Of a stretch of 64,000 nt of DNA, positions 25,139-54,443 are shown in pieces (the stretch's first letter is position 1; each line of letters begins with the position of its first letter). Both the position numbers and the translations under genes were made by a program. This DNA is from a virus, in the IMG/VR virus record IMGVR_UViG_3300032053_000011, positions 64,001-128,000 of that record. One strand, 5' to 3'. Under the pieces are notes generated by a model. It made no database searches, was not told the DNA's origin, and was given only the letters and a program-made list of their open reading frames with translations.

Positions 25139-25743
25139 TAGTGGAAATGGACGAGGACGAGGACGACATGGCCCGATGCGGAGTCTTTCACCGGATCATC
25201 GCTGAGGAGTCGAGAGGTCCGCGCGGTGGTGCCATCACGCACTATCAGGCGGAGTGCATCGGCTGCGGTCGCAAGACGGATCCAATCCGAATCACATCGG
25301 ATTCAATGGGCCGCGAGCGGAGCCTTGCCGCGCTTCACGAACACCAGTGCCCGACGCCACCAGTGGTCTCCGCGCAAGGTCTTCTGCTGAACGGCCTCGC
25401 GAAGTACATCGAGGATGAAGAGCCGATCCCTCTGACCTTCGCCATCGAACACTTCGGCGACCGCACGCCGGAAGATGCGCTGCGGCTGGCATGGAGCAAG
25501 TGTGTTGAGGGACACGCGCTCGGCGCGTTGATGTATGCGCTCCGCCAGAAAGTCTCGTGCGAATCGGCACCGCGCTACAGCCAGGATCGCGCAACGACGT
25601 TCGTCTCGTTCAACTGCGGCAACGTGTCGTATCAGTTGCGTGGGACCGACGCCAACGTCGCCGATGCGGTCCGTGGAATCGTCGATGCGGAAAAACTGAT
25701 CGCTGGGACCCTGCGCCGGTGCTTCAAACCGGCCGTGGGATAG
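25135..25743 (+). CDS. Hypothetical protein with CxxC...H.C and paralogue-family-like C-terminus
   Basis: CIGCG...HEHQC; ALRLAWSKC...ADAVRGIV. Confidence 0.55.
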   Translation: MIVEMDEDEDDMARCGVFHRIIAEESRGPRGGAITHYQAECIGCGRKTDPIRITSDSMGRERSLAALHEHQCPTPPVVSAQGLLLNGLAKYIEDEEPIPLTFAIEHFGDRTPEDALRLAWSKCVEGHALGALMYALRQKVSCESAPRYSQDRATTFVSFNCGNVSYQLRGTDANVADAVRGIVDAEKLIAGTLRRCFKPAVG

Positions 25744-25764
25744 GCGCTTTCGGTTTCTGCCGGG

Positions 25765-25975
25765 TTGAGGTTGCGCCTGAACATTGAGGTCGCGCCTGAA
25801 TACGCCGCGAACATCGCCAGAGCGGTTTGAGCGTCTCGGTTGCACCCTCTGGACAGTTGAATCGCCATTTCGACCCTTGACGACCAGTCATGCATCGGTG
25901 GACCCGCTACCTGCGGAAGATCATGAAATCTTCCGCACAGAGCGGTTTGAGCGATTGTAACGCCGTGTAACGCCG
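25765..25975. repeat. Cluster of direct and inverted repeats in a convergent intergenic gap
   Basis: TTGAGGTYGCGCCTGAA x2 (25765, 25784); CAGAGCGGTTTGAGCG x2 (25818, 25938); TGCGGAAGAT-N6-ATCTTCCGCA (25912-25937); TGTAACGCCG x2 (25956, 25966). Confidence 0.85.
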
Positions 25976-26045
25976 TTCTCCGATCACCGGGCGAGATGAT
26001 CGGATTGACATCGGCACGTTACGCCAAGCGTTGCCGCGTGAAGGC

Positions 26046-26261
26046 TTATTGGTCGAACTCGCACGCGTGCTGTTGCGAATCGATGTTCATCCGCCCGCAG
26101 TCTGGACACTGCGGCGCGAACTCGTGCGAGCGTGACTTTGCATGCTCGTCACGAGCGTCCACGGGCCCGTGGAACGCATGCGTTTGTTCGTTGCCACAGA
26201 TGCCGCACTTGATGTGTCCGCATGCGGGACAGAACGGGCACGCATCTTTCGTCTTAGCCAT
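26046..26261 (-). CDS. Small Cys-rich Zn-binding protein
   Basis: CPFCPACGHIKCGIC...CPDC. Confidence 0.55.
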   Translation of the reverse strand: MAKTKDACPFCPACGHIKCGICGNEQTHAFHGPVDARDEHAKSRSHEFAPQCPDCGRMNIDSQQHACEFDQ

Positions 26262-26266
26262 GCCGA

Positions 26267-26641
26267 CTACGACTGGATTCGCGGCGTGAGGAACGGGGCC
26301 GGTGCACAACCGGTGGTGCGATCGCCGCTGAATGTCCCGGGTCCTACCCAGAACGGGCCAGGATTCGGCTGCCACGGTCCGATCGTCGGGGTCGCTGGCG
26401 GAAACGGCAACGGAAATGGCATCGGCATGATCGGCACGATCGGAAGCGGATAGACGTCGGGGTACATCCGTTGCGGCGCTATCGACACCGCGCGCAGCAA
26501 CTCGGCAAGTGCGGCGCCCGGGGTCGGCAGCCACAGGAGGCCCGTCGCGCCGCATCCCTTGCACTTCACGCGCATGCGTGGTGCTGAGCCAGGATGTGAA
26601 CCGCGTCCATCGCAGGCCGGGCACTTGATTGGATTGGTCAT
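26267..26641 (-). CDS. CxxCxGxG Zn-finger + Pro-rich protein
   Basis: CPACDGRG...CKGCGATG; RBS-like AGAGAG upstream. Confidence 0.6.
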   Translation of the reverse strand: MTNPIKCPACDGRGSHPGSAPRMRVKCKGCGATGLLWLPTPGAALAELLRAVSIAPQRMYPDVYPLPIVPIMPMPFPLPFPPATPTIGPWQPNPGPFWVGPGTFSGDRTTGCAPAPFLTPRIQS

Positions 26642-26689
26642 CGATCGTCTCTCTTTCCGATCTCGAGACTACCATGCTACTGTCGACAC

Positions 26690-26801
26690 AACGCAGTAGC
26701 TCAGCGAGCTGTAAGTGGCGGCGAAGTACAAGCCACCCAAGCGACAGAAGAGCACCCGGTTCCTAACCGGTTGGTCGCCCGTGCAACTCGGGCCTGCGTC
26801 C
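26690..26801 (+). tRNA. tRNA-Arg(CCU)-like RNA with a 47-nt D-loop
   Basis: Acceptor ACGCAG/CTGCGT, U8A9, D-stem GCTC (26699-702)/GAGC (26750-53), anticodon arm CCGG-TTCCTAA-CCGG, variable TGGTC, T-arm GCCCG-TGCAACT-CGGGC; no encoded CCA; TGcTACTGT extended -10 just upstream. Confidence 0.75.
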
Positions 26802-26822
26802 TATTGTGGTACCGTGGCGCCC

Positions 26823-27197
26823 ATGAAGATCGTCCTCGTGCGCGGCGCCCAAGCTGATGACGCCAGACGGCATCTCGGGCTGTTGAAGGTGACGCGCGCG
26901 ACTGCCGAAGCGCTGTGGAACGTCGGCTTCCCCGTGATCCTGACCGGCAACAACGTCAACTCCCACCACTTCTTCACCGGCTGGAATCTGGCATACCCGA
27001 TGCGGCCGAAGAGCGAGGACGGCAACTTCTCGGTTGCGGCCAACGCCTTCGTGGCGAACCTCGAGCCCGAGCTCGGAACCGGACCCGCGTTCTTCCTCAG
27101 ACCCGAGCTGAGCGAGGACGAACTTCGGACGGTCGGACTGGCGACATATCTTCTGTTCGAGGCGGCTGTCGCCGCAGCGCTCTCGCCGAAACGATGA
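26823..27197 (+). CDS. Hypothetical protein
   Basis: Start moved to ATG 26823 because the upstream part of the ORF is the tRNA-like gene. Confidence 0.55.
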   Translation: MKIVLVRGAQADDARRHLGLLKVTRATAEALWNVGFPVILTGNNVNSHHFFTGWNLAYPMRPKSEDGNFSVAANAFVANLEPELGTGPAFFLRPELSEDELRTVGLATYLLFEAAVAAALSPKR

Positions 27198-27215
27198 TGC
27201 GATGATCCGTGTGTT

Positions 27216-27539
27216 TCACGGCGGTCCCACAACCTCGGTTTTCCCGTAACGGTTGACCTCGAGATCCCGGATTACGATGCGGAGACCGTTGATCACATGC
27301 TCGCGCGACTCAGCACAGTCCGCCATCGCCGCTCCGCCGCTTGGCGTCGCCACGAGGATGAAGATGACAGCGTCGGCGTGAAACCGCTGGCGCAGCACAT
27401 CAAGACTTTGATGCGTGGCCACCTGCAACTGCTCACTGTTCATCGGCACGAGCGCACGGAGACGCTGCACCGGTCTCAGGATCGGTCCGAACACTGCACC
27501 GAGGATGCACCCGAGCACCAGCATGATCGCGAGGTTCAT
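27216..27539 (-). CDS. Small membrane protein
   Basis: N-terminal TM helix. Confidence 0.5.
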   Translation of the reverse strand: MNLAIMLVLGCILGAVFGPILRPVQRLRALVPMNSEQLQVATHQSLDVLRQRFHADAVIFILVATPSGGAAMADCAESREHVINGLRIVIRDLEVNRYGKTEVVGPP

Positions 27540-27562
27540 CGTTTCGTTGTACCATTGCTGCG

Positions 27563-27943
27563 ATGTCCAGGGAGCTCCAGATCGGCGAGAGACGGCCGCC
27601 GCAGATTCACGTAGCCGGGCCCGCGCGCCTGAAGCTCTACATGAGCCAGCGTGGCGTCAGCCAGACGAAGTTCGCGAAGATCCTGCGCGTCGGCCGAGTG
27701 ACGCTCTGCCGATGGCTGAACGAAGAACAGCGGCCGGACGGCGAGGGGCGCGAACGAATCGCACTCGCCACCGACGGCTTCGTTCGGCCGCCTGACTGGG
27801 AGACACCGGCGGAGTTCACCGCGCGCAGGGACAAGGAGCGTTACGTCGCCGAGCACCCGCGCAAACGGCAACGCAAGCCTCGACCGAAGCACTTCAGTTT
27901 CGCGCAGGCCATCTTCGATCCGCGTACAGGACAACTCCGGTGA
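27563..27943 (+). CDS. XRE/Cro-family HTH regulator
   Basis: LKLYMSQRGVSQTKFAKILRVGRVTLCRWLNEEQRP...IALATDG.V.P.DW. Confidence 0.8.
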   Translation: MSRELQIGERRPPQIHVAGPARLKLYMSQRGVSQTKFAKILRVGRVTLCRWLNEEQRPDGEGRERIALATDGFVRPPDWETPAEFTARRDKERYVAEHPRKRQRKPRPKHFSFAQAIFDPRTGQLR

Positions 27944-28338
27944 GCAAGCTCCTGCGGCTCTACGGGACCTTCAAGATCGAACGCGACCGGTTCGCGCGCG
28001 TCTTCCCGAATGTCGCCCATGCCACGCTGATGGTCTCGCCGCGCGCCTGCTCGCCCGCAAGCCGATGTGTGTGGCGCGACTTCGCCTGGGCGTTTCCAGA
28101 TCATGGTGAAGTGCATCTGTCCCATCGCGTCCTGTCGCTGCCGGTCGAGAATCAGATCGGCCTCATCCGTCACGAACTCGGACACCTCGCTGATGGGCAT
28201 ATTGCGGAGCCATGGGCAGAGCAGCGCGCCGACGATCTCGCCGAGAGAGCTACCGGCGAACGCATCTTCTACGACGCACGCGATCTTCAGACGATTGCGC
28301 GGGGCCAGTACCCGCGGCCCATGCACTTGCACCGGTGA
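27940..28338 (+). CDS. HExxH Zn metallopeptidase (ImmA/IrrE-like or minimal zincin)
   Basis: LIRHELGH...AEQRADDLAE; coupled to the XRE gene. Confidence 0.7.
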   Translation: MSKLLRLYGTFKIERDRFARVFPNVAHATLMVSPRACSPASRCVWRDFAWAFPDHGEVHLSHRVLSLPVENQIGLIRHELGHLADGHIAEPWAEQRADDLAERATGERIFYDARDLQTIARGQYPRPMHLHR

Positions 28339-28406
28339 TTGCGTCGTGAGAGGAACGCGAATGCGCGGGAAGTGTCCGCACTACTCGTGCCGTGTAGACT
28401 GCCGAC

Positions 28407-29444
28407 ATGCACGAGAACCCACCACGGCGGCTCCCAGTGTTCGGCCAGAGCCGTGTCGCGCCCGAAGAGCACGCGCGCGAAGCGGAAGTGTTCGCCCGGC
28501 GAATGGAGCGACGTGAAAAATTCCTGGCCTTCGTTGCCGCACGCGACCTCGCACTGGTAGTGCGCCCGGTCGACCCGTATACCGGCCATGTCCATGAGCC
28601 GTGCATAGTCCCTGTCGGCGGGCCGCTTGTGATGCAGTACGACGACGGCGAAGGCGGCATCAGGACGAGCAGCCCGATCTGGTCCGCCGGTCTCTTCTCG
28701 GACACCACGAAGATGAAGGCGCCGAGCTTCTCTCTTCCGGCCGGACTCCCCTCGGCCGGAGGGACCTGTCCCGCATCCAAGCTGGATGGTGAGCCTGACA
28801 AAGTCTTCATCTGCCACGACTGTTACGCCACCAAGGGCGGATACCAGTGGCCCAGAAATGTCGCGCTGAGCCTCATCCGGCGTGACTGGACCATCTCCGC
28901 GGTGCGCGACAGCAGCTTCGCGCCGGGGATGATTGCTTCCATCGAGACCATCCTCGAGCGACCGCATGACCCACGCTGGGACTCACGCTACTTCCGAGTC
29001 CATGACTCTGGCGACTTCATGGGCAGCGCGGCGTACGTGCGTGCCTGGAACACCGTGGCGGCTCACTTCGTGAAACGCATCATCTTCTGGGCGCCCACCC
29101 GCGACTGGGTGTTCTTCCCCGATCAGGCCCAGACGGCACGGAAGTACGGCAACGTCCGACCGAACCCCGATCTCGCCGCGGCGATGCGAGAGCGCCCAGC
29201 GAACTTCGTGATCCGGCCGAGCGCGCTCCAGGTCGGCGATGCACCGCCGGTCGTGCATGGACTGGACGGCGGAACCAGCGTGGATACCCCGTCCATCCAC
29301 GCCGCGTTCACCACGTGCGGTCCTGCCGCCAAGGGCCACCAGTGCAGTTGCCCGGCGTACGAACGTAGCGTCAACTGCCAGAGCGCAGGATGCCGGACCT
29401 GCTGGATCTTCCCCAAACGCCAAGTCGGTTACAAACAGCACTGA
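28407..29444 (+). CDS. Gp88-like (radical-SAM-related) phage protein
   Basis: SFSLPA...TCP...C..CYA.KG.Y, YFRVHDSGDF, WAPTR, NFVIRPS and CPAY....C...CRTCW. Confidence 0.8.
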   Translation: MHENPPRRLPVFGQSRVAPEEHAREAEVFARRMERREKFLAFVAARDLALVVRPVDPYTGHVHEPCIVPVGGPLVMQYDDGEGGIRTSSPIWSAGLFSDTTKMKAPSFSLPAGLPSAGGTCPASKLDGEPDKVFICHDCYATKGGYQWPRNVALSLIRRDWTISAVRDSSFAPGMIASIETILERPHDPRWDSRYFRVHDSGDFMGSAAYVRAWNTVAAHFVKRIIFWAPTRDWVFFPDQAQTARKYGNVRPNPDLAAAMRERPANFVIRPSALQVGDAPPVVHGLDGGTSVDTPSIHAAFTTCGPAAKGHQCSCPAYERSVNCQSAGCRTCWIFPKRQVGYKQH

Positions 29445-33865: not shown

Positions 33866-34078
33866 TTACGAGCGTTTTCGAATACGCCGGTTCGGAATGA
33901 TCGTTTCCGTGCGGATTCCCCACTTGTCTTTCACGTGGTGCCAGCCTGGGAAAGCACGGGATGGCGCCACGTAGGTACCCGGCTCCCAGCTATTCAGCGT
34001 GATCGGCGGCGGCGGGTTCGCCCGGATGAACTCGATGGGATCGCCCTCGAGAAACGCCTTCACGAATGGCTTTCTCAC
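33866..34078 (-). CDS. Small hypothetical protein
   Basis: GTG 34078 coupled to the RNB gene stop. Confidence 0.5.
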   Translation of the reverse strand: MRKPFVKAFLEGDPIEFIRANPPPPITLNSWEPGTYVAPSRAFPGWHHVKDKWGIRTETIIPNRRIRKRS

Positions 34079-35895
34079 CGGCCGTCGCCGAGCACTCGGA
34101 TCATCTCGATCGCCGCGCCGCGCTTCGCGTCGATCTTGCTTCCGGCCCGGGCGTGGACAATCAGCTCGCGCACCTTGCACGCGCAGAGCATCACCGGAAT
34201 GTGCGGTGGACCGCTGACCTCGAACGTGTACGACGGCATCACGTTCTCGATCTGGCACCATTCCTGGAGTGTGGAGATGGGGTCCTTCGAGGGGTTCAAG
34301 GTCGGCACCGGCGCAGCGACGGGGACAGGCGCCGTCGGGCTCACCGGCGGACGCTCCATGTCCGCCTGGGGCACTGGCACGCCCGCCATGTTCGCGAGAA
34401 TGGCAACCGTCGCCAACTGCTCCGCGCGTTTCTTCTGCTTGGCACTGGCCTTCCCAGTCCACACAACACCGTCGATCGACACCGACGCAACGACCTCGAA
34501 CACCGGCACGGTACCGGGCGCGGTACTAGTGAGTTCGTATTGCGGCACGGTCCATCTCGGATCGAGCGACGCCGCCTGTGCGAGAGCGCTCACCGCATCC
34601 TCCGGGCGCTGAGCCAGCGCTGCGATGATGGCGGCGCGCATGGGCCGCCACGCATCGGTCATCGGCGCCTGCGTCAGGACGACCGTCATCGCCAAGAGTG
34701 GGGTCTTGTTCTCTCTGGTGCGAAGCAGGAACGCATCGGCGAACGCCGCGGACGGGTCGAGACCAGACCGGGCCTCGACCTTCGTCACTCGCTCGAAATC
34801 CTTGTGCGCGAGGCCATCGATCTGCCGAGCACCGATCGCGCGCGCGGCCTTCTGCTCGCTCTTCTCTTTCATCGCTCGAGATGTGGCAGCGTCCTCCGCC
34901 TTCATCACCGTCGCGATGTGCTCGGCGAACACCGTCATCTGATCCTTCGCGTAGAAGTGCGTGCCGTCTTTCAGCGCTCGGCGGATCTGGCGATGGTTGA
35001 TCAGATCCGCGTATCGTCGAATGGGAGAGGTGAAGTGCGTGTAGACCGGAAGGTTCAGCCCATAGTGGCCGAGCACCGAGCCGCCGTAAGATGCGCGGTC
35101 GAGCAGCAGATGCGTACGCTGACGGAGGGCATCGAGTCCCTGGAGCGGCGCAGTGATGGCGCCGCCGAGCTGTCGTTGTAACTCCGCCCGGTCAGGCGCC
35201 GCCGCGCGCGCGACGTGGTTGCGAAATAGGATCGGGATGTCTTGATCCACAGCCCAACGAGCGATCGCGCTGTTCGCGAGGATCATCAGCTCCTGGATGA
35301 GGATGTATCCGACGGTGGCGTCATGGCTCTCGATCCGTCGAAGGAATCCCTCCTCGCTGGCCACCCAGCCGTTGTTGAGGTCGTACAGGACGAAGGCTCC
35401 ATCCAACCGGCGCTTGTCGAGCAACGCTCGCGTGAGCGACGCCGCGGAGATCAACATGGCGCGATACGGCGGATCCATCTCTCCATTCAGGATCGCTGGG
35501 ATCTCTCGATAGGTGAGCTTCGCAAGGCTGACCAGGATCTCGTGCGACACGGTCACGTCTGTGTTCGTGAGGCTTTCTTTGTCGACGGCGATCGTCACCG
35601 CCAGCACGCGACGTTTCTGTCCAGGCCACAGCGAGATGTCCCCCTCACTCAGATCACGCCGAAGCATCGGGCTATTCCCCGAAGCGAAGTACCGCGTCTC
35701 GGCCATCACGCGCGCGCGCAGATCATCTTCGTCGCCATCCTTGACGAACGCAGCGACGTCCGCGATCGAAACGGTCACCTTCCATGCCGTCGCAGTCTCC
35801 TCGACCCAGATCGCATCGTCGATGTCGCGTGTCGAAGCGTCGTCGATCGTCAGCCCAGAGATCGTTGGCTCCCCATATACTTTCTCGGTCTTCAT
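34075..35895 (-). CDS. RNase II/R catalytic (RNB) domain fused to two dsRNA-binding domains
   Basis: TIDDASTRDIDDA, SIADVA, LIQELMILAN and HYGL....YTHFTSPIRRYADLINHRQI. dsRBD1: DAVSALAQ...P.YE...PVFEV...KQKKRAEQLA. dsRBD2: DPISTLQEWCQ....P.Y....SGPPHIP...SKIDAKRGAA. ATG 35895 is coupled to the upstream stop. Confidence 0.9.
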   Translation of the reverse strand: MKTEKVYGEPTISGLTIDDASTRDIDDAIWVEETATAWKVTVSIADVAAFVKDGDEDDLRARVMAETRYFASGNSPMLRRDLSEGDISLWPGQKRRVLAVTIAVDKESLTNTDVTVSHEILVSLAKLTYREIPAILNGEMDPPYRAMLISAASLTRALLDKRRLDGAFVLYDLNNGWVASEEGFLRRIESHDATVGYILIQELMILANSAIARWAVDQDIPILFRNHVARAAAPDRAELQRQLGGAITAPLQGLDALRQRTHLLLDRASYGGSVLGHYGLNLPVYTHFTSPIRRYADLINHRQIRRALKDGTHFYAKDQMTVFAEHIATVMKAEDAATSRAMKEKSEQKAARAIGARQIDGLAHKDFERVTKVEARSGLDPSAAFADAFLLRTRENKTPLLAMTVVLTQAPMTDAWRPMRAAIIAALAQRPEDAVSALAQAASLDPRWTVPQYELTSTAPGTVPVFEVVASVSIDGVVWTGKASAKQKKRAEQLATVAILANMAGVPVPQADMERPPVSPTAPVPVAAPVPTLNPSKDPISTLQEWCQIENVMPSYTFEVSGPPHIPVMLCACKVRELIVHARAGSKIDAKRGAAIEMIRVLGDGR

Positions 35896-37346
35896 GACTT
35901 CTCCTGGTACAGCGACACATGAACGAGCCCTGCGGATGGGCAGATGGAAACTCTGGTGCCAGCGGGGTATCGCGTACACGCTTTCGGCACGAGTACGATC
36001 GGGATGTTGCGCTCGAGCGCCACCTGGGCGAGATGAGCCAACGCGCCTCCGGCTTCGGTGATCACGCCCTTCGCAGACAGGAGAGACTCGAGCCGGTCTG
36101 GATGCAGATCGGGCAGAACGATGATGTCCGTCCCAACGACGCCGTAGACGTCTGCGCCGCCAACGAGCACGGCACACTCGAAGTTGCCGAGCCGTTCCTG
36201 GAGCTCGTACATCGTGTGGTCCGCGCCCTTGCAGACCTCGGAATCGGGGTTGTAGGCGTCTTCGATCGGGAGTCCCGCGCCGAGCCACCAATCCGTGTGG
36301 TACGGATCATCGTTTGTCATCTTCGTTCCAGAATGGGCGACACACTTCCATGCCGGAGCGAGGTGGCGCAGCGAGGTTCGGTGGAGTGCCCAGTTCATGA
36401 ACGGCGCACGCGGAACCGAAGCCACCACCTTGCCGCCCTCGGTGGTCACGTCGAGCATGTCGCCATTCGCACGCTCGATGACGCCGAGGCGAATGCGGTC
36501 GAGTTCGGCACGGTACTCCACCTCTTGCGCGTCTTCGCGTAGCGCTCGTTCCATGGCCACCGCGGACCGCGACGGCCGCGGCAGCTCTTCGTCCGAGTCC
36601 TCATCAGGTACTGACCTCGCGCGGTCGCCACAGCGTGCGCTCCAGCCCTCTTTGGTGAGCGTGCGGCCAGCGGCGAGAAAGTCGGCGAGCGCCTTCGTCG
36701 GCGTCGTGTTCTCGGTCCACCACACCGGTGGTTCGCCGCATGCCTCGAAGATGATGCAAGCTTCCCATGGGTCACGATCGGGGCGGTCGACTCGGCAGAC
36801 GCGATCGCCTTCCCCTGCATAGAACGAGACACGATCGTCGTAACCACGCTCTGTGATACCGCGTGTGCGGACACGTCTCGAGTTCGCGTGATCGGCATCG
36901 TCCGGGCCCAAGTCCATCACCTCCGCGCTCGGCCGCCACCATGTCCCGTCGATGCGGATGCGTCCCGCATAGAGGTATCGGACCTGCGCGATGTACTCGA
37001 GGTCATCGTCATCGGCGGCGTCCATGCCCGTCTCGTCCCCGACCAACTTCTGTCTGCCGTCGAGTAGCTCCGAAGCAACATGCTCCGCGGCGCCGGGCGG
37101 GCCGCCACCGAGGCCATCGACGATCAGACGCCATGCCTTTCCGGGCATGTCAGATAGGAAGATGTCGCGCGCCGCGCGGGTGAGATACTCGCCCGAGATG
37201 CGGAAGTGCGTGACCCCGCACCTGCGCTCAGCGGGCTCCGCTGTTTCCTGGCGCGCTACCGACGTCTTGTTCTTCTTCGTTCGCATTCGTATCCCCTGGT
37301 CGATTGTCTGCGCGCCCGTGGCTCCGCGATCGGAGCGCGAACTCAT
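35892..37346 (-). CDS. Unknown N-terminal region + PEP-utilising enzyme mobile (phospho-His swivel) domain
   Basis: IIVLPDLHPD......AKGVITEAGGALAHLAQVALERNIP...G.RV.I....G.V. Confidence 0.75.
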   Translation of the reverse strand: MSSRSDRGATGAQTIDQGIRMRTKKNKTSVARQETAEPAERRCGVTHFRISGEYLTRAARDIFLSDMPGKAWRLIVDGLGGGPPGAAEHVASELLDGRQKLVGDETGMDAADDDDLEYIAQVRYLYAGRIRIDGTWWRPSAEVMDLGPDDADHANSRRVRTRGITERGYDDRVSFYAGEGDRVCRVDRPDRDPWEACIIFEACGEPPVWWTENTTPTKALADFLAAGRTLTKEGWSARCGDRARSVPDEDSDEELPRPSRSAVAMERALREDAQEVEYRAELDRIRLGVIERANGDMLDVTTEGGKVVASVPRAPFMNWALHRTSLRHLAPAWKCVAHSGTKMTNDDPYHTDWWLGAGLPIEDAYNPDSEVCKGADHTMYELQERLGNFECAVLVGGADVYGVVGTDIIVLPDLHPDRLESLLSAKGVITEAGGALAHLAQVALERNIPIVLVPKACTRYPAGTRVSICPSAGLVHVSLYQEKS

Positions 37347-41842: not shown

Positions 41843-41962
41843 CGTCCCAGACTGCTCGCTTCCACGCCAGAATGGTAGCGGTGACGGAACCGCCCCGGGC
41901 GCGTATCATGCGCGCGCCGCCGTTGACGCAGACCATACGACCGTGTTCAGCATGGTGTCGCG

Positions 41963-52868: not shown

Positions 52869-54443
52869 ATGCTCAACGCGGCGGCCTTGGAAGCACGGAT
52901 TGGAACGATGCTGGCTGGCAAGTATCGGCTCGATCGAATTCTTGGCATGGGTGGCATGGGCGCGGTCTTCGACGCCGAGAACACATGGCTCACACGGCGG
53001 GTTGCCGTCAAGGTTATGCACCCCGACGTGAGTCGTGATCAGGCGCTCGTGGAGCGTTTCCTACGCGAAGCAAGAGCCGCCGCACGTGTGCATCATCCGA
53101 ATGTCGTCGACGTGCTCGACTTGGGGCAGGATGCCGATGGGACTCTTTTCATCGTGCAGGAATTCTTGCCGGGGACCGACCTCGAGCATCTGATGCGAGA
53201 TCGTGGGCCGCTTCCTCCGCGTGAAGCGCTCGAGATCATCGTGCCCGTGATGAGCGCGTTGATTGCTGCTCACCGCAGCGGCATCCTGCACCGCGACGTG
53301 AAGCCCGCCAACGTGCTCCTCGCGAATTCACCAGGAGGTGGTGTTGTCCCCAAGCTTCTGGACTTTGGTATCGCGAAGGTACAGGAGTCCGTCGCATCGA
53401 AGGACCTCACACAGACCGGCGTCGCACTCGGCACAGTGCATTACTTCTCGCCCGAGCAAGCCGCGGGCGCGCGCGACGTTGATGCGCAGACCGACGTTTG
53501 GGCCCTGGCAGTGATGTTGTACGAGATGCTCTCGGGACGCTGCCCCTGGGAAGGCGAGACGGTCAACCAGATCTTCGCAGCCGTGTTGACCGCAGAAGTG
53601 CCGCCGATTCAGTCGATCGCGCCGAACGTGCCCGATGCACTCGCGGCGGTGATCATGCGTGCGCTCGAGCGCGATCGGACGGTGCGCTTCCGTTCGATGC
53701 AGGAATTCCTTGGTGCTCTGCTCGACTGCCCGACGTTCGAGAAGGAGAGCTGGCACACCACTCTGCGGGTCACCCATCAGGCAGCCACTACATCGGTCGA
53801 CGGCCCAATCGAGATGGAGCGCGAACGCCGTGGGACGGACGTGCTGCAAGTGATGCCGAGCAAGGTAACGCCGCCACGCATGACTACGTTCGGCAGGACG
53901 GCGCGCGAGATCCTCGTCCCGTCGGACAACCATCTCGATACATCATCGCTCAGCGGATTCGTCGTGATGGCCGGGTTCCTGATGCTCACCGCATTCGGGA
54001 TGACCGCAATCGGTATTGCGTTTGGGATCGGTGGACTTGGCTCCCATGCCTCCGTCCCCGCGCCGCGTCCGGCTGCGACGTTCGAAGCGGTCTTCGATGT
54101 CCCCGGCGCCACGATCGAGATCGACGGTGTGCCGATGGGCACCGGTCATGTCGCCGTGGTGCTGCCGGTTGATGGCCGCAGCCATGTCGCGCGCTGCTAC
54201 GCCCCCGGACGTGTCGAACGTCGCGTGGAGTTTCGCAACCAGCTTCCGCCGGTTCGCATCGCGCTCGAGCCAATTGCGGTTCCGCCTCTCGTCGTGGAAC
54301 CACCGACGGCAGCGCCCACCATCATTCGCCATGTCCGGGCTGCGGCGCCAGTCGCGGTCCATCCGACGCCTCCACCGCCTGCCGCGGCTCATTCCGCAAG
54401 CCGCTCGCGCAATGGCGCACCGATCCTGGGGCTCGATGAATAA
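52869..54443 (+). CDS. Hanks-type Ser/Thr protein kinase with TM helix and PEGA-like extracellular domain
   Basis: LGMGGMGAV, VAVK, HRDVKPAN, DFGIAK, GTVHYFSPEQ and DVWALAV; TM segment; PGATIEIDG...G...APG. Confidence 0.95.
   Translation: MLNAAALEARIGTMLAGKYRLDRILGMGGMGAVFDAENTWLTRRVAVKVMHPDVSRDQALVERFLREARAAARVHHPNVVDVLDLGQDADGTLFIVQEFLPGTDLEHLMRDRGPLPPREALEIIVPVMSALIAAHRSGILHRDVKPANVLLANSPGGGVVPKLLDFGIAKVQESVASKDLTQTGVALGTVHYFSPEQAAGARDVDAQTDVWALAVMLYEMLSGRCPWEGETVNQIFAAVLTAEVPPIQSIAPNVPDALAAVIMRALERDRTVRFRSMQEFLGALLDCPTFEKESWHTTLRVTHQAATTSVDGPIEMERERRGTDVLQVMPSKVTPPRMTTFGRTAREILVPSDNHLDTSSLSGFVVMAGFLMLTAFGMTAIGIAFGIGGLGSHASVPAPRPAATFEAVFDVPGATIEIDGVPMGTGHVAVVLPVDGRSHVARCYAPGRVERRVEFRNQLPPVRIALEPIAVPPLVVEPPTAAPTIIRHVRAAAPVAVHPTPPPPAAAHSASRSRNGAPILGLDE

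What the first reader, a model, noticed from the sequence alone, without database searches (positions are those of the whole stretch)
26690..26801. tRNA-Arg(CCU)-like RNA with a structured insertion of about 38 nt in the D-loop
Seen: all four tRNA stems are present, but the D-loop spans 26703-26749 (47 nt versus the usual 7-10). It can fold as CTGT/ACAG plus GTGGC/GCCAC. The T-loop is TGCAACT, pair 1:72 is A-C, CCA is not encoded, and an extended -10 sits just upstream. Knowledge: bacterial tRNA introns are large group I/II elements, while short D-loop introns are archaeal and need a bulge-helix-bulge, which I do not see here. Inference: a novel short intron, a tRNA with an extra arm, or a tRNA mimic/decoy against anticodon nucleases. 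Standard scanners would probably miss it.
Basis: partly seen in the sequence, partly recalled or inferred. Interest (0 to 1): 0.8.

Follow-up and report, generated by a model that had tools for sequence, protein, structure and literature searches.

The report
Interrupted arginine tRNA relic in phage
A large uncultured phage carries, between two divergent genes, a real descendant of an arginine tRNA gene with 40 extra bases in its D-loop, but this copy has lost several features a working tRNA needs and is probably defective or repurposed.

Summary
Window 26690-26801 (+) has all four tRNA stems, a CCU anticodon loop and a 47-nt D-loop.

The tRNA likeness is not chance. ARAGORN calls tRNA-Arg(CCU) in 83 of 180 insert-deleted variants. 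The same procedure passed only 3 loci in 100 random genomes, all with lower scores. A covariance model that tolerates D-loop inserts scores the locus 41.9 bits (E 4e-8). It is the only tRNA-like hit in the 137.5-kb phage outside the phage's own nine tRNAs.

Standard scanners miss it. ARAGORN finds nothing, and Rfam tRNA gives 15.2 bits against a threshold of 29.

Short D-loop inserts recur in other phage tRNA genes: 20 of 29 IMG/VR pattern hits had no ordinary tRNA call. Earlier notes of this scan reported the same on other DNA. I found no paper on it.

This copy differs from those. It has A18 and G55 where G18 and U55 are near-universal, an A1·C72 mismatch, discriminator C73 and no CCA, and it lies far from the tRNA cluster. 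I found no intron signature, no relatives whose DNA I could read, and no RNA data.

Best reading (0.45): a defective, unspliced tRNA-Arg(CCU) copy. A functional extra-arm tRNA or a decoy is not excluded.

The parts
26690..26801 (+). Whole tRNA-Arg(CCU)-derived element (112 nt including discriminator C26801)
   Evidence: Custom CM R2 aligns it end to end: 41.9 bits, E 4.4e-8 and 3.8e-8. ARAGORN calls tRNA-Arg(cct) in 83 of 180 insert-deleted variants.
26690..26696 (+). Acceptor stem, 5' strand AACGCAG (A1 unpaired against C72)
   Evidence: Sequence. Pair probabilities 0.89-1.0.
26794..26800 (+). Acceptor stem, 3' strand CTGCGTC
26699..26702 (+). D stem, 5' strand GCTC
   Evidence: It pairs with 26750-26753 in the CM alignment but has ensemble probability 0.02.
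26750..26753 (+). D stem, 3' strand GAGC
26706..26745 (+). 40-nt insertion as placed by the covariance model, between C16 and the A18-G19-A20-A21 end of the D-loop
   Evidence: CM alignment. No similar sequence elsewhere in the phage. No significant likeness to inserts of 15 other interrupted phage tRNAs; best z is 2.3.
26715..26736 (+). Hairpin GTGGC-12 nt-GCCAC inside the insertion
   Evidence: MFE fold. Pair probability 0.38. The whole 47-nt D-loop (26703-26749) folded alone gives z -0.62.
26697..26711 (+). Competing proximal hairpin TAGCTC-AGC-GAGCTG, which would sequester U8, A9 and the D-stem 5' strand
   Evidence: MFE. Pair probabilities 0.54-0.97.
26755..26771 (+). Anticodon arm CCCGG-TTCCTAA-CCGGT; anticodon CCT at 26762-26764
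   Evidence: The core 15 nt (CCGG-TTCCTAA-CCGG, window 26756-26770) is found unchanged in bacterial tRNA-Arg(CCU) genes L031-L034.
26777..26793 (+). T arm GCCCG-TGCAACT-CGGGC, with G at position 55 (26783)
   Evidence: All nine tRNAs of the phage have T at position 55.
26675..26683 (+). TGcTACTGT, an extended -10-like element ending 6 nt before A26690
   Evidence: Sequence only. Not found by the consensus promoter scan. No repeat of it elsewhere in the phage.
26823..27197 (+). Downstream ORF (124 aa, no family). Its frame is open back to GTG 26715, across the element.
   Evidence: One homologue, P0002, at 68% identity, whose N-terminal extension is not alike. Pfam, PHROGs, Atlas and AF2 are uninformative.
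26267..26641 (-). Divergent upstream ORF (124 aa, two CxxCxGxG motifs). Together with 26823 it bounds a 181-bp intergenic gap.
   Evidence: Homologues P0004 (58% identity) and P0005.

Best explanation
The element descends from a bacterial-type tRNA-Arg(CCU) gene. It carries a 40-nt insertion in the D-loop, at the site where other phages also carry short inserts.

In this copy the insert is not removed. The RNA, if it is made at all, would be the 5' part of the transcript of the downstream gene. The elbow of the tRNA is no longer canonical: A replaces G18, G replaces U55, and a proximal hairpin competes with the D stem. The acceptor end is poor, with an A1·C72 mismatch, discriminator C73 and no CCA.

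It is therefore most likely a defective, pseudogene-like second copy of the phage's tRNA-Arg(CCU) and does not decode.

Shown: tRNA ancestry, position and size of the insert, the listed departures, and absence of known intron signatures. Inferred: no splicing, no charging, no function.
For: tRNA ancestry:
- ARAGORN calls tRNA-Arg(cct) in 83 of 180 insert-deleted variants. Scores are 102.9-114.2, against 109.2-121.6 for the phage's nine tRNAs.
- In the null test, only 2 of 350 loose cloverleaves in the real genome pass. One is this locus; the other is an artefact that reuses the true tRNA-Lys. In 100 order-2 Markov genomes 3 loci passed in all, best score 102.7.
- CM R2, built without any tRNA-Arg(CCU) chosen for likeness, gives 41.9 bits. 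At E<=10 it is the only hit in the whole phage besides the nine known tRNAs.
- The body matches bacterial tRNA-Arg(CCU) genes L033 and L034.

Defects:
- All nine phage tRNAs have a standard 1:72 pair and T at position 55. Four encode CCA and four more encode CC. This copy has A·C, G55 and TAT.
- The CM aligns A26746 to G18.
- Most interrupted tRNAs found elsewhere keep GG just before the D-stem 3' strand. Rfam of 20 of them whole, at 31.9-59.2 bits. This one gets 15.2 bits.
- The phage already has a canonical tRNA-Arg(CCU), at 51.7 bits in Rfam.
- An engineered aptamer inserted between C16 and G18 of E. coli tRNA-Tyr was not detectable on Northern blots (PMC5397188, passages read).

No intron signature:
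- Rfam finds no ribozyme or intron family.
- The helices around the insert do not form a bulge-helix-bulge.
Against: - 19 of 21 stem pairs are intact, and 12 of about 14 near-invariant tRNA positions are kept. The two that changed, 18 and 55, are partners in the folded tRNA. That could mean a remodelled elbow under selection rather than decay.
- Phage genomes usually delete dead DNA quickly, yet this element is full length.
- D-loop inserts sit in otherwise perfect tRNAs of other phages, sometimes several per cluster. The insert by itself is therefore no sign of a dead gene.
- A -10-like element stands at the right distance for a transcript starting at position 1.
- Its R2 score of 41.9 bits lies within the range of other interrupted phage tRNAs that were not in the training set (31-68 bits).
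- No expression or conservation data exist either way.
Confidence: 0.45

Rival explanations
1. It is a working tRNA-Arg(CCU) with a fifth arm. The insert stays in the mature RNA and projects from the elbow, and the molecule is still charged, after CCA addition by the host, and reads AGG.
For: - The insert is at the D-loop site that recurs in other phage tRNAs.
- The anticodon loop is canonical, and A20, C35 and U36 are present. These are ArgRS identity elements as I recall them from E. coli work; they come from no call.
- Stems are largely intact.
- AGG makes up 193 of 2709 Arg codons in 164 ORFs picked by codon-position G+C, not a curated gene set.
Against: - G55, A18, A1·C72, C73 and no CCA.
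- A canonical tRNA-Arg(CCU) already exists in the cluster.
- The engineered D-loop fusion was unstable in E. coli.
- The D stem has probability 0.02 in the ensemble.
Confidence: 0.17
2. It is a non-decoding tRNA-shaped RNA. One possibility is a bait for a host anticodon nuclease or another tRNA-binding defence protein. Another is a tRNA-like leader that controls processing or translation of the ORF that starts 22 nt downstream and has no Shine-Dalgarno sequence.
For: - The anticodon arm is perfect for tRNA-Arg(CCU) while the acceptor end is unfit for charging.
- The element lies in the leader of an ORF with no visible ribosome-binding site.
- Earlier notes of this scan describe other non-decoding tRNA mimics in phages. 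These are unchecked leads only.
Against: - No partner gene was identified. The neighbours have no family.
- No relatives of the element were found in IMG/VR, JGI metagenomes or GTDB genomes by pattern.
- The upstream stretch of the only homologue, P0002, gives an unlike peptide.
Confidence: 0.2
3. The 40 nt are a new kind of short intron. A protein endonuclease and ligase, or an unrecognised ribozyme, remove them to give a 72-nt tRNA.
For: In some other phages, tRNAs with D-loop inserts and tRNAs with 45-57-nt anticodon-loop inserts lie in the same clusters. That pattern would fit a splicing system.
Against: - No bulge-helix-bulge, and no Rfam ribozyme or intron hit.
- Removing the insert would still leave A18 and G55.
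- The DNA contigs show no insert-free form.
Confidence: 0.05
4. It is a chance resemblance inside a divergent promoter region, or an N-terminal coding extension of the downstream gene starting at GTG 26715.
For: - The cloverleaf alone is expected about 5 times per genome.
- The frame is open from 26715, and the called homologue P0002 is also longer, at 159 aa.
Against: - ARAGORN null test: 0 of 100 random genomes reach its score.
- CM E-value is 4e-8.
- The extension is not conserved with P0002 and lacks the codon-position G+C pattern of the gene: 0.58/0.61/0.75 against 0.65/0.46/0.81.
Confidence: 0.04

Closest known systems
Bacterial tRNA-Arg(CCU) genes (for example those in a Myxococcales MAG, L033, and a Gemmatimonadetes MAG, L034)
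   Same: Positions 8-16 (TAGCTCAGC in L034), D-stem 3' strand GAGC, A26, anticodon arm NCCGG-TTCCTAA-CCGGN, variable loop NGGTC and a 5-bp G+C-rich T stem.
   Different: The bacterial genes have a 9-nt D-loop with G18G19, a TTCGARТ-type T-loop with U55, a fully paired acceptor stem and discriminator A. Here there is a 47-nt D-loop, A18, G55, A1·C72 and C73.
D-loop-interrupted tRNA genes of other uncultured phages (IMG/VR loci L003, L005, L007, L019, L020, L022, L027 and others; earlier scan notes e1-4090478, e1-5822480, e1-3754880)
   Same: A 25-45-nt insert within the D-loop of an otherwise recognisable tRNA. ARAGORN makes no call (20 of 29 pattern hits). Insert sequences are idiosyncratic.
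   Different: Those copies mostly keep GG before the D-stem 3' strand. They have a canonical T-loop, though my search pattern required that. They often encode CCA, and several lie in tRNA clusters. Rfam of 20 whole. Several have 4-6-nt 'anticodon' loops. The present copy is solitary and degenerate.
Archaeal (and red-algal) bulge-helix-bulge tRNA introns at non-canonical positions, including the D-arm (PMC3241643: search listing and start of abstract only; the rest recalled)
   Same: A short intervening sequence inside the D region of a tRNA gene.
   Different: A BHB motif and a splicing endonuclease are required. No BHB can be drawn here. The virus looks bacterial: its RecT protein matches records of phages of bacteria, and several of its tRNAs encode CCA.
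Engineered D-Spinach tRNA-Tyr of E. coli (PMC5397188, passages read)
   Same: A structured insert between C16 and G18 of a bacterial tRNA.
   Different: It is synthetic, with a roughly 100-nt aptamer. That fusion was undetectable on Northern blots, whereas the variable-loop fusion was stable and active.

Membership tests
tRNA (Rfam RF00005 / ARAGORN) | Reaches the family's gathering score (29 bits), or is called by ARAGORN on the native sequence | tested here: not met
   Rfam found nothing at gathering or at E<=10 on 501 nt. On 133 nt it gave 15.2 bits, E 0.8, with the D arm deleted. ARAGORN made no call with default, -i or -ps settings.
tRNA (Rfam RF00005 / ARAGORN) | Scores as a tRNA once the D-loop insert is discounted | tested here: met
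   83 of 180 deletion variants are called tRNA-Arg(cct), against a null of 0.03 loci per random genome. Insert-tolerant CM R2 gives 41.9 bits, E 4e-8. R1 gives 48.9 bits but is biased by four Arg(CCU) genes chosen by pattern.
tRNA (Rfam RF00005 / ARAGORN) | Near-invariant nucleotides U8, A14, G18, G19, A21, U33, G53, U54, U55, C56, A58, C61 | tested here: not met
   10 of these 12 are present. G18 is A26746 and U55 is G26783.
tRNA (Rfam RF00005 / ARAGORN) | Mature RNA that is charged and used in translation | not testable with these tools
   No RNA run is listed.
Archaeal-type BHB tRNA intron | Two 3-nt bulges on opposite strands separated by a 4-bp helix at the exon-intron borders | tested here: not met
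   Around the only 4-bp helix, CUGU/ACAG, the unpaired stretches are 6 and 2 nt on the outside and 2 and 7 nt on the inside. That helix has probability at most 0.09. This was checked by inspection; no dedicated BHB finder was run.
Group I / group II self-splicing intron or small self-cleaving ribozyme | Match to a known intron or ribozyme family; adequate size | tested here: not met
   The insert is 40 nt. No Rfam family other than the weak tRNA hit matched.
D-loop-interrupted phage tRNAs (informal class, not a curated family) | Insert lies within the D-loop, 3' of position 16 | tested here: met
   The CM places 40 nt after A14-G15-C16. Class members read AG|insert|GGTA-GAGC.
D-loop-interrupted phage tRNAs (informal class, not a curated family) | Rest of the tRNA is canonical (G18G19 kept, U55, paired 1:72, often CCA) | tested here: not met
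   A18, G55, A1·C72 and no CCA.
D-loop-interrupted phage tRNAs (informal class, not a curated family) | Insert forms a stable hairpin | tested here: inconclusive
   The whole 47-nt D-loop (26703-26749) folded alone gives -11.1 kcal/mol, z -0.62; 51 of 200 shuffles fold as well. Hairpin probability in the full RNA is 0.38.
Phage attP core derived from a host tRNA gene | Integrase gene in the phage; identity to a host tRNA 3' part | tested here: not met
   No PF00589 or PF00239 match in the 137.5-kb record. No exact 19-nt match in 596 Gb of GTDB genomes.

The most novel reading that the evidence does not exclude
The element is a working member of an undescribed class of phage tRNAs and tRNA-like RNAs that carry an extra structured arm in the D-loop. 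Here the elbow has been rebuilt (A18/G55 plus the arm), so that the RNA still displays a perfect tRNA-Arg(CCU) anticodon arm. In this reading it serves as a nuclease-resistant decoder of AGG or as bait for a host tRNA-Arg-directed defence nuclease. It is expressed from its own -10 element ahead of an early gene.
Probability: 0.25. Interest if true: 0.8.

Novelty: new variant of a known kind. Interest (0 to 1): 0.45.

Why it matters
Bacterial and phage tRNA genes are thought to be interrupted only by large self-splicing introns in the anticodon loop. Short inserts in the D-loop are a hallmark of archaea and of a few eukaryotes.

This locus adds to a growing set of phage tRNA genes with short D-loop inserts. 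The set now includes the IMG/VR hits found here (20 of 29 lacking an ordinary ARAGORN tRNA call) and several earlier notes of this scan. ARAGORN misses them, Rfam's tRNA model calls only about half of them whole, and I found no paper that describes them.

If such RNAs are functional, there are two possibilities. Either phages tolerate or use a fifth arm at the tRNA elbow, or an unknown splicing route exists in bacteria.

This particular copy is the weaker kind of evidence, because it looks degenerate and has no relatives whose DNA could be read. Its main value is twofold. It shows that the class also leaves relics or diverged forms. It also provides a test case with an explicit null model and an insert-tolerant covariance model that can be reused.

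Tried and rejected
Homologous loci:
- The search for related loci with three flanking proteins, and with the alignment A2, found no relatives in viral contigs or metagenome contigs.
- tblastn of both flanking proteins against GenBank phages found none.
- blastn of 25500-28500 against phages found none.
- The only homologues are P0002 (ENA, 1.8-kb contig), P0004 (JGI, 970 bp), P0005 (Logan, 3.1 kb) and an identical copy on a 247-kb contig. Conservation and covariation of the element therefore remain untested.

Element-specific DNA patterns:
- No match in IMG/VR, JGI metagenomes or GTDB for the 19-mer.
- A looser Arg(CCU) D-insert pattern gave 5 IMG/VR matches. None had a tRNA structure.

Expression:
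- No RNA holder is listed for the stretch.
- Laying the one DNA run showed only the source contig, with no variant and no joint.

Rejected ideas:
- An internal duplication of the tRNA 5' part, suggested by the Rfam alignment. The local alignment scores 10 against a shuffle mean of 12.
- The insert as a repeated element of the phage. There is no second copy.
- A shared promoter or operator motif. None recurs.
- Homology of the insert to other phages' inserts. Best z is 2.3, with L003.
- An attP site. There is no integrase.

Uninformative tests:
- Back-translation compatibility of the P0002 N-terminus with the element had no power. The coding control scored 0.68, the same as shuffles.
- The structure of the downstream protein had mean pLDDT 40, so no fold search was run. 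The Atlas gave only hypothetical viral clusters scoring below 0.9.

Literature: searches found no paper on short D-loop inserts in bacterial or phage tRNA genes. The library holds open-access papers only. Supplements were not consulted.

Full report
WHAT IS THERE

The window is bases 64001-128000 of a 137,514-bp IMG/VR virus record (63.5% G+C, CheckV completeness 93%) from a sediment metagenome. The finding lies in a 181-bp gap between two genes.
- One is a minus-strand gene, 26267-26641. Its product has 124 aa, two CxxCxGxG motifs and homologues P0004 and P0005.
- The other is a plus-strand gene starting at ATG 26823. Its product has 124 aa and one homologue, P0002, at 68% identity.

- Acceptor stem: 6 of 7 pairs, with A1·C72.
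- D stem: GCTC/GAGC.
- D-loop: 47 nt.
- Anticodon arm: CCCGG-TTCCTAA-CCGGT.
- Variable loop: TGGTC.
- T arm: GCCCG-TGCAACT-CGGGC.
- Discriminator: C, with no CCA after it.

IS IT MORE THAN CHANCE?

The cloverleaf alone is not. I wrote a descriptor for a cloverleaf with a D-loop of about 20-60 nt (total span 83-125 nt) and these minimum stem qualities: acceptor at least 6 of 7 pairs, T stem at least 4 of 5, anticodon stem at least 4 of 5, D stem at least 3 of 4.
- On both strands of the phage it finds 350 cloverleaves, 5 of them as good as the candidate.
- Order-2 Markov genomes give a mean of 335.5 loose and 5.1 equally good ones.

The tRNA-specific content is significant.
- I deleted the insert inside a script and gave the result to ARAGORN. 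It calls tRNA-Arg(cct) in 83 of 180 deletion variants at default settings and in 103 of 180 at the pseudogene setting. Scores are 102.9-114.2. The phage's nine tRNAs score 109.2-121.6, and a dubious ARAGORN call elsewhere scores 101.3.
- I applied the same 20-variant procedure to all 350 cloverleaves of the real genome. Only two pass. One is this locus, at 114.2. The other is an artefact that reuses the true tRNA-Lys 3' part.
- In 100 random genomes 3 loci passed in all, with a best score of 102.7.
- I then built covariance models that learn a D-loop insert state. R1 gave 48.9 bits, but it contained four bacterial tRNA-Arg(CCU) genes that I had selected by the candidate's own anticodon arm. 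I therefore discount R1.
- R2 was built from 8 interrupted phage tRNAs and 8 tRNAs of this phage, without those four genes. It gives 41.9 bits, E 4.4e-8, aligned end to end over 26690-26801.
- Over the whole phage at E<=10, R2 finds only its 8 training tRNAs, tRNA-Ser (29.9 bits) and this locus.
- One caveat applies. R2 contains this phage's two tRNA-Ile genes, which share the anticodon-stem sequence CCCGG. That helps the candidate somewhat.

STANDARD SCANNERS

ARAGORN finds nothing on the native sequence, whether intron-aware or in pseudogene mode. Rfam finds nothing at gathering score, nor at E<=10 on 501 nt. On 133 nt it gives one weak tRNA hit of 15.2 bits, E 0.8. That hit skips the D arm and uses an internal pseudo-acceptor. 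The apparent internal repeat behind it is not significant.

WHERE THE INSERT IS AND WHAT IT LOOKS LIKE

The CM places 40 nt (26706-26745) after A14-G15-C16. It aligns A26746-G26747-A-A to G18-G19-U20-A21.

Bacterial tRNA-Arg(CCU) genes with the same anticodon stem have D-loops AGCCGGAAA (L034) or AGTTGGATA (L033) and discriminator A. The body here is therefore a typical bacterial tRNA-Arg(CCU).

The insert has no second copy in the phage. It folds no better than shuffles (z -0.62).

In the full RNA the acceptor and T arms are near certain. The distal D stem, however, has probability 0.02, because UAGCUC-AGC-GAGCUG forms a competing hairpin with probability 0.54-0.97. Tertiary contacts are not modelled, so this is a caution and not a disproof.

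NO INTRON SIGNATURE

Forty nucleotides are far too few for a group I or II intron, and no Rfam ribozyme or intron family matches. The unpaired stretches around the only 4-bp helix are 6 and 2 nt on the outside and 2 and 7 nt on the inside. This is not a bulge-helix-bulge. No RNA run holds the stretch. The one DNA run shows no insert-free form.

A RECURRENT CLASS ELSEWHERE

I searched IMG/VR with the pattern GTAGCTCAG-N28-58-GAGC-N24-28-GGTTCGAATCC. It gave 29 loci. A rough chance expectation is 0.02, scaled from the 5 chance matches of a 19-base pattern.
- 9 of the 29 overlap an ordinary ARAGORN tRNA. These are a 5' tRNA fragment followed by a complete tRNA.
- 20 of the 29 have no ARAGORN call.

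Of those 20:
- Rfam's tRNA model covers the whole interrupted gene in 10, at 31.9-59.2 bits. These are L003, L005, L007 and L022 and L009, L017, L019, L020, L024 and L027.
- It covers part of 1 (L015) and none of the other 9.
- R2 finds 9 of these loci at 44-68 bits: L002, L006, L008, L011, L013, L015, L017, L023 and L028. L017 is one that Rfam had already covered whole. L025 and L026, near copies of L008, were not searched.

Most of these read AG | insert | GG(A)TA-GAGC. That is, the insert lies 5' of a retained G18G19.

Two of the 20, L017 and L024, are better read as a tRNA-Leu-like gene with a very long variable region.

Several have 'anticodon' hairpins with loops of 4-6 nt and so may not decode. 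Some phages hold several long tRNAs side by side, including ones with 45-57-nt inserts in the anticodon loop. Insert sequences are not alike.

Earlier notes of this scan report the same kind of D-loop hairpin on other DNA (e1-4090478, e1-5822480, e1-3754880). They are unchecked AI notes. My pattern scan, run before I read them, agrees with their claim of recurrence. Five literature searches found no paper describing it.

HOW THIS COPY DIFFERS

My pattern forced a canonical T-loop, so U55 cannot be compared across the class. G18G19 was not forced, yet it is kept in most members. Here position 18 is A.

Within the same phage:
- All nine tRNAs have a standard 1:72 pair.
- All nine have T at position 55.
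- Four encode CCA and four more encode CC.

The candidate has A·C at 1:72, G55 and TAT after the discriminator.

The phage already has a canonical tRNA-Arg(CCU) in its cluster at genome 4.4-6.1 kb. The candidate sits alone, 85 kb away.

A Spinach aptamer inserted between C16 and G18 of E. coli tRNA-Tyr gave no detectable RNA, whereas the variable-loop fusion was stable (PMC5397188, passages read).

Several points argue against simple decay.
- 19 of 21 pairs are intact.
- 12 of about 14 near-invariant positions are kept.
- The two lost positions, 18 and 55, are partners in the folded tRNA.
- A -10-like TGcTACTGT ends 6 nt before position 1. This rests on sequence only; the consensus scan found no promoter.

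OTHER READINGS CHECKED

An attP core is unlikely. The record has no tyrosine or serine recombinase, and 596 Gb of genomes hold no exact 19-mer.

A coding N-terminal extension from GTG 26715 is unlikely. Its codon-position G+C is not gene-like, and P0002's extension is unlike it.

The virus looks like a bacteriophage. Its RecT protein matches 502 records of phages of bacteria, and other genes encode an RNB/dsRBD exoribonuclease, a Ser/Thr kinase and an AAA ATPase. The host is not identified.

VERDICT

The insert sits at a site where other phage tRNAs also carry short inserts. This copy has an unorthodox elbow and acceptor end, no relatives whose DNA could be read and no expression data.

My estimates are:
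- 0.45 that it is a defective, unspliced copy;
- about 0.37 that it is a functional RNA, either a five-arm decoder (0.17) or a non-decoding mimic or leader (0.20);
- 0.05 that it is spliced;
- 0.04 that it is chance or coding.

The remaining mass, about 0.09, is left for readings I have not thought of.

The decisive data are the DNA of the three short homologous contigs and any small-RNA data.

Noticed in passing
G000 genome c16509-16580 (outside the window; L041 210-281): A tRNA with anticodon CUA (amber-suppressor type) and encoded CCA; Rfam gives 60.7 bits. The ORFs here were picked by codon-position G+C and are not a curated gene set. Of 50 that end in TAG, 8 are followed in frame by a coding-like stretch of at least 60 codons, against 8 of 104 that end in TGA. 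This is a weak hint that some TAG codons are read through.
   Followed up: partly
G000 genome 4984-5055 (outside the window; L040): The tRNA-Ile(UAU)-type gene has an unusual T-loop, ATCGTAC, with A54 and T58 swapped relative to the usual T54 and A58. It has C instead of U at position 33. It nevertheless encodes CCA and scores 59.2 bits in Rfam.
   Followed up: no
window 41869-41938 (-): ARAGORN's only call in the window, tRNA-Ile(gat), 70 nt, score 101.3. Neither Rfam at gathering score nor the custom model R2 at E<=10 supports it. It is probably a false positive.
   Followed up: partly
L006 3333-3952; L002 4246-5992; L011 965-1292 and 4028-4143; L023 4156-4473: Other uncultured phages hold two to four long tRNA genes (91-122 nt) side by side. 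Some have D-loop inserts and some have 45-57-nt inserts in the anticodon loop, too short for group I introns. Several D-interrupted ones have 4-6-nt 'anticodon' loops capped like tetraloops. As a group this looks undescribed and deserves its own study.
   Followed up: partly
L017 13527-13630 and L024 348-451: A tRNA-Leu(UAA)-like gene with a normal D arm and anticodon arm, and a variable region of about 34 nt containing a 7-8-bp hairpin. This is much longer than usual class II variable arms.
   Followed up: no
window 34075-36291 (-), 52869-54443 (+), 35892-37346 (-): The phage encodes an RNase II/R-type exoribonuclease fused to a dsRNA-binding motif, a Ser/Thr protein kinase, and a protein with a PEP-utilising mobile domain.
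   Followed up: no
window 25744-26266: About 520 bp between the end of the plus-strand gene block and the minus-strand gene has no ORF with gene-like codon-position G+C. No Rfam family matches.
   Followed up: no
whole record: Proteins identical to both flanking genes are on record on a single contig of 247,125 bp (P0001, P0003). The phage genome may therefore be much larger than the 137.5-kb record that CheckV rated 93% complete.
   Followed up: no
G000 genome 5395-5859 and 16742-16990 (outside the window): ORFs next to the phage's tRNA genes have tblastx relatives next to tRNA clusters in unrelated IMG/VR phages: L018 and L020 for the first, L005 and L022 for the second.
   Followed up: no
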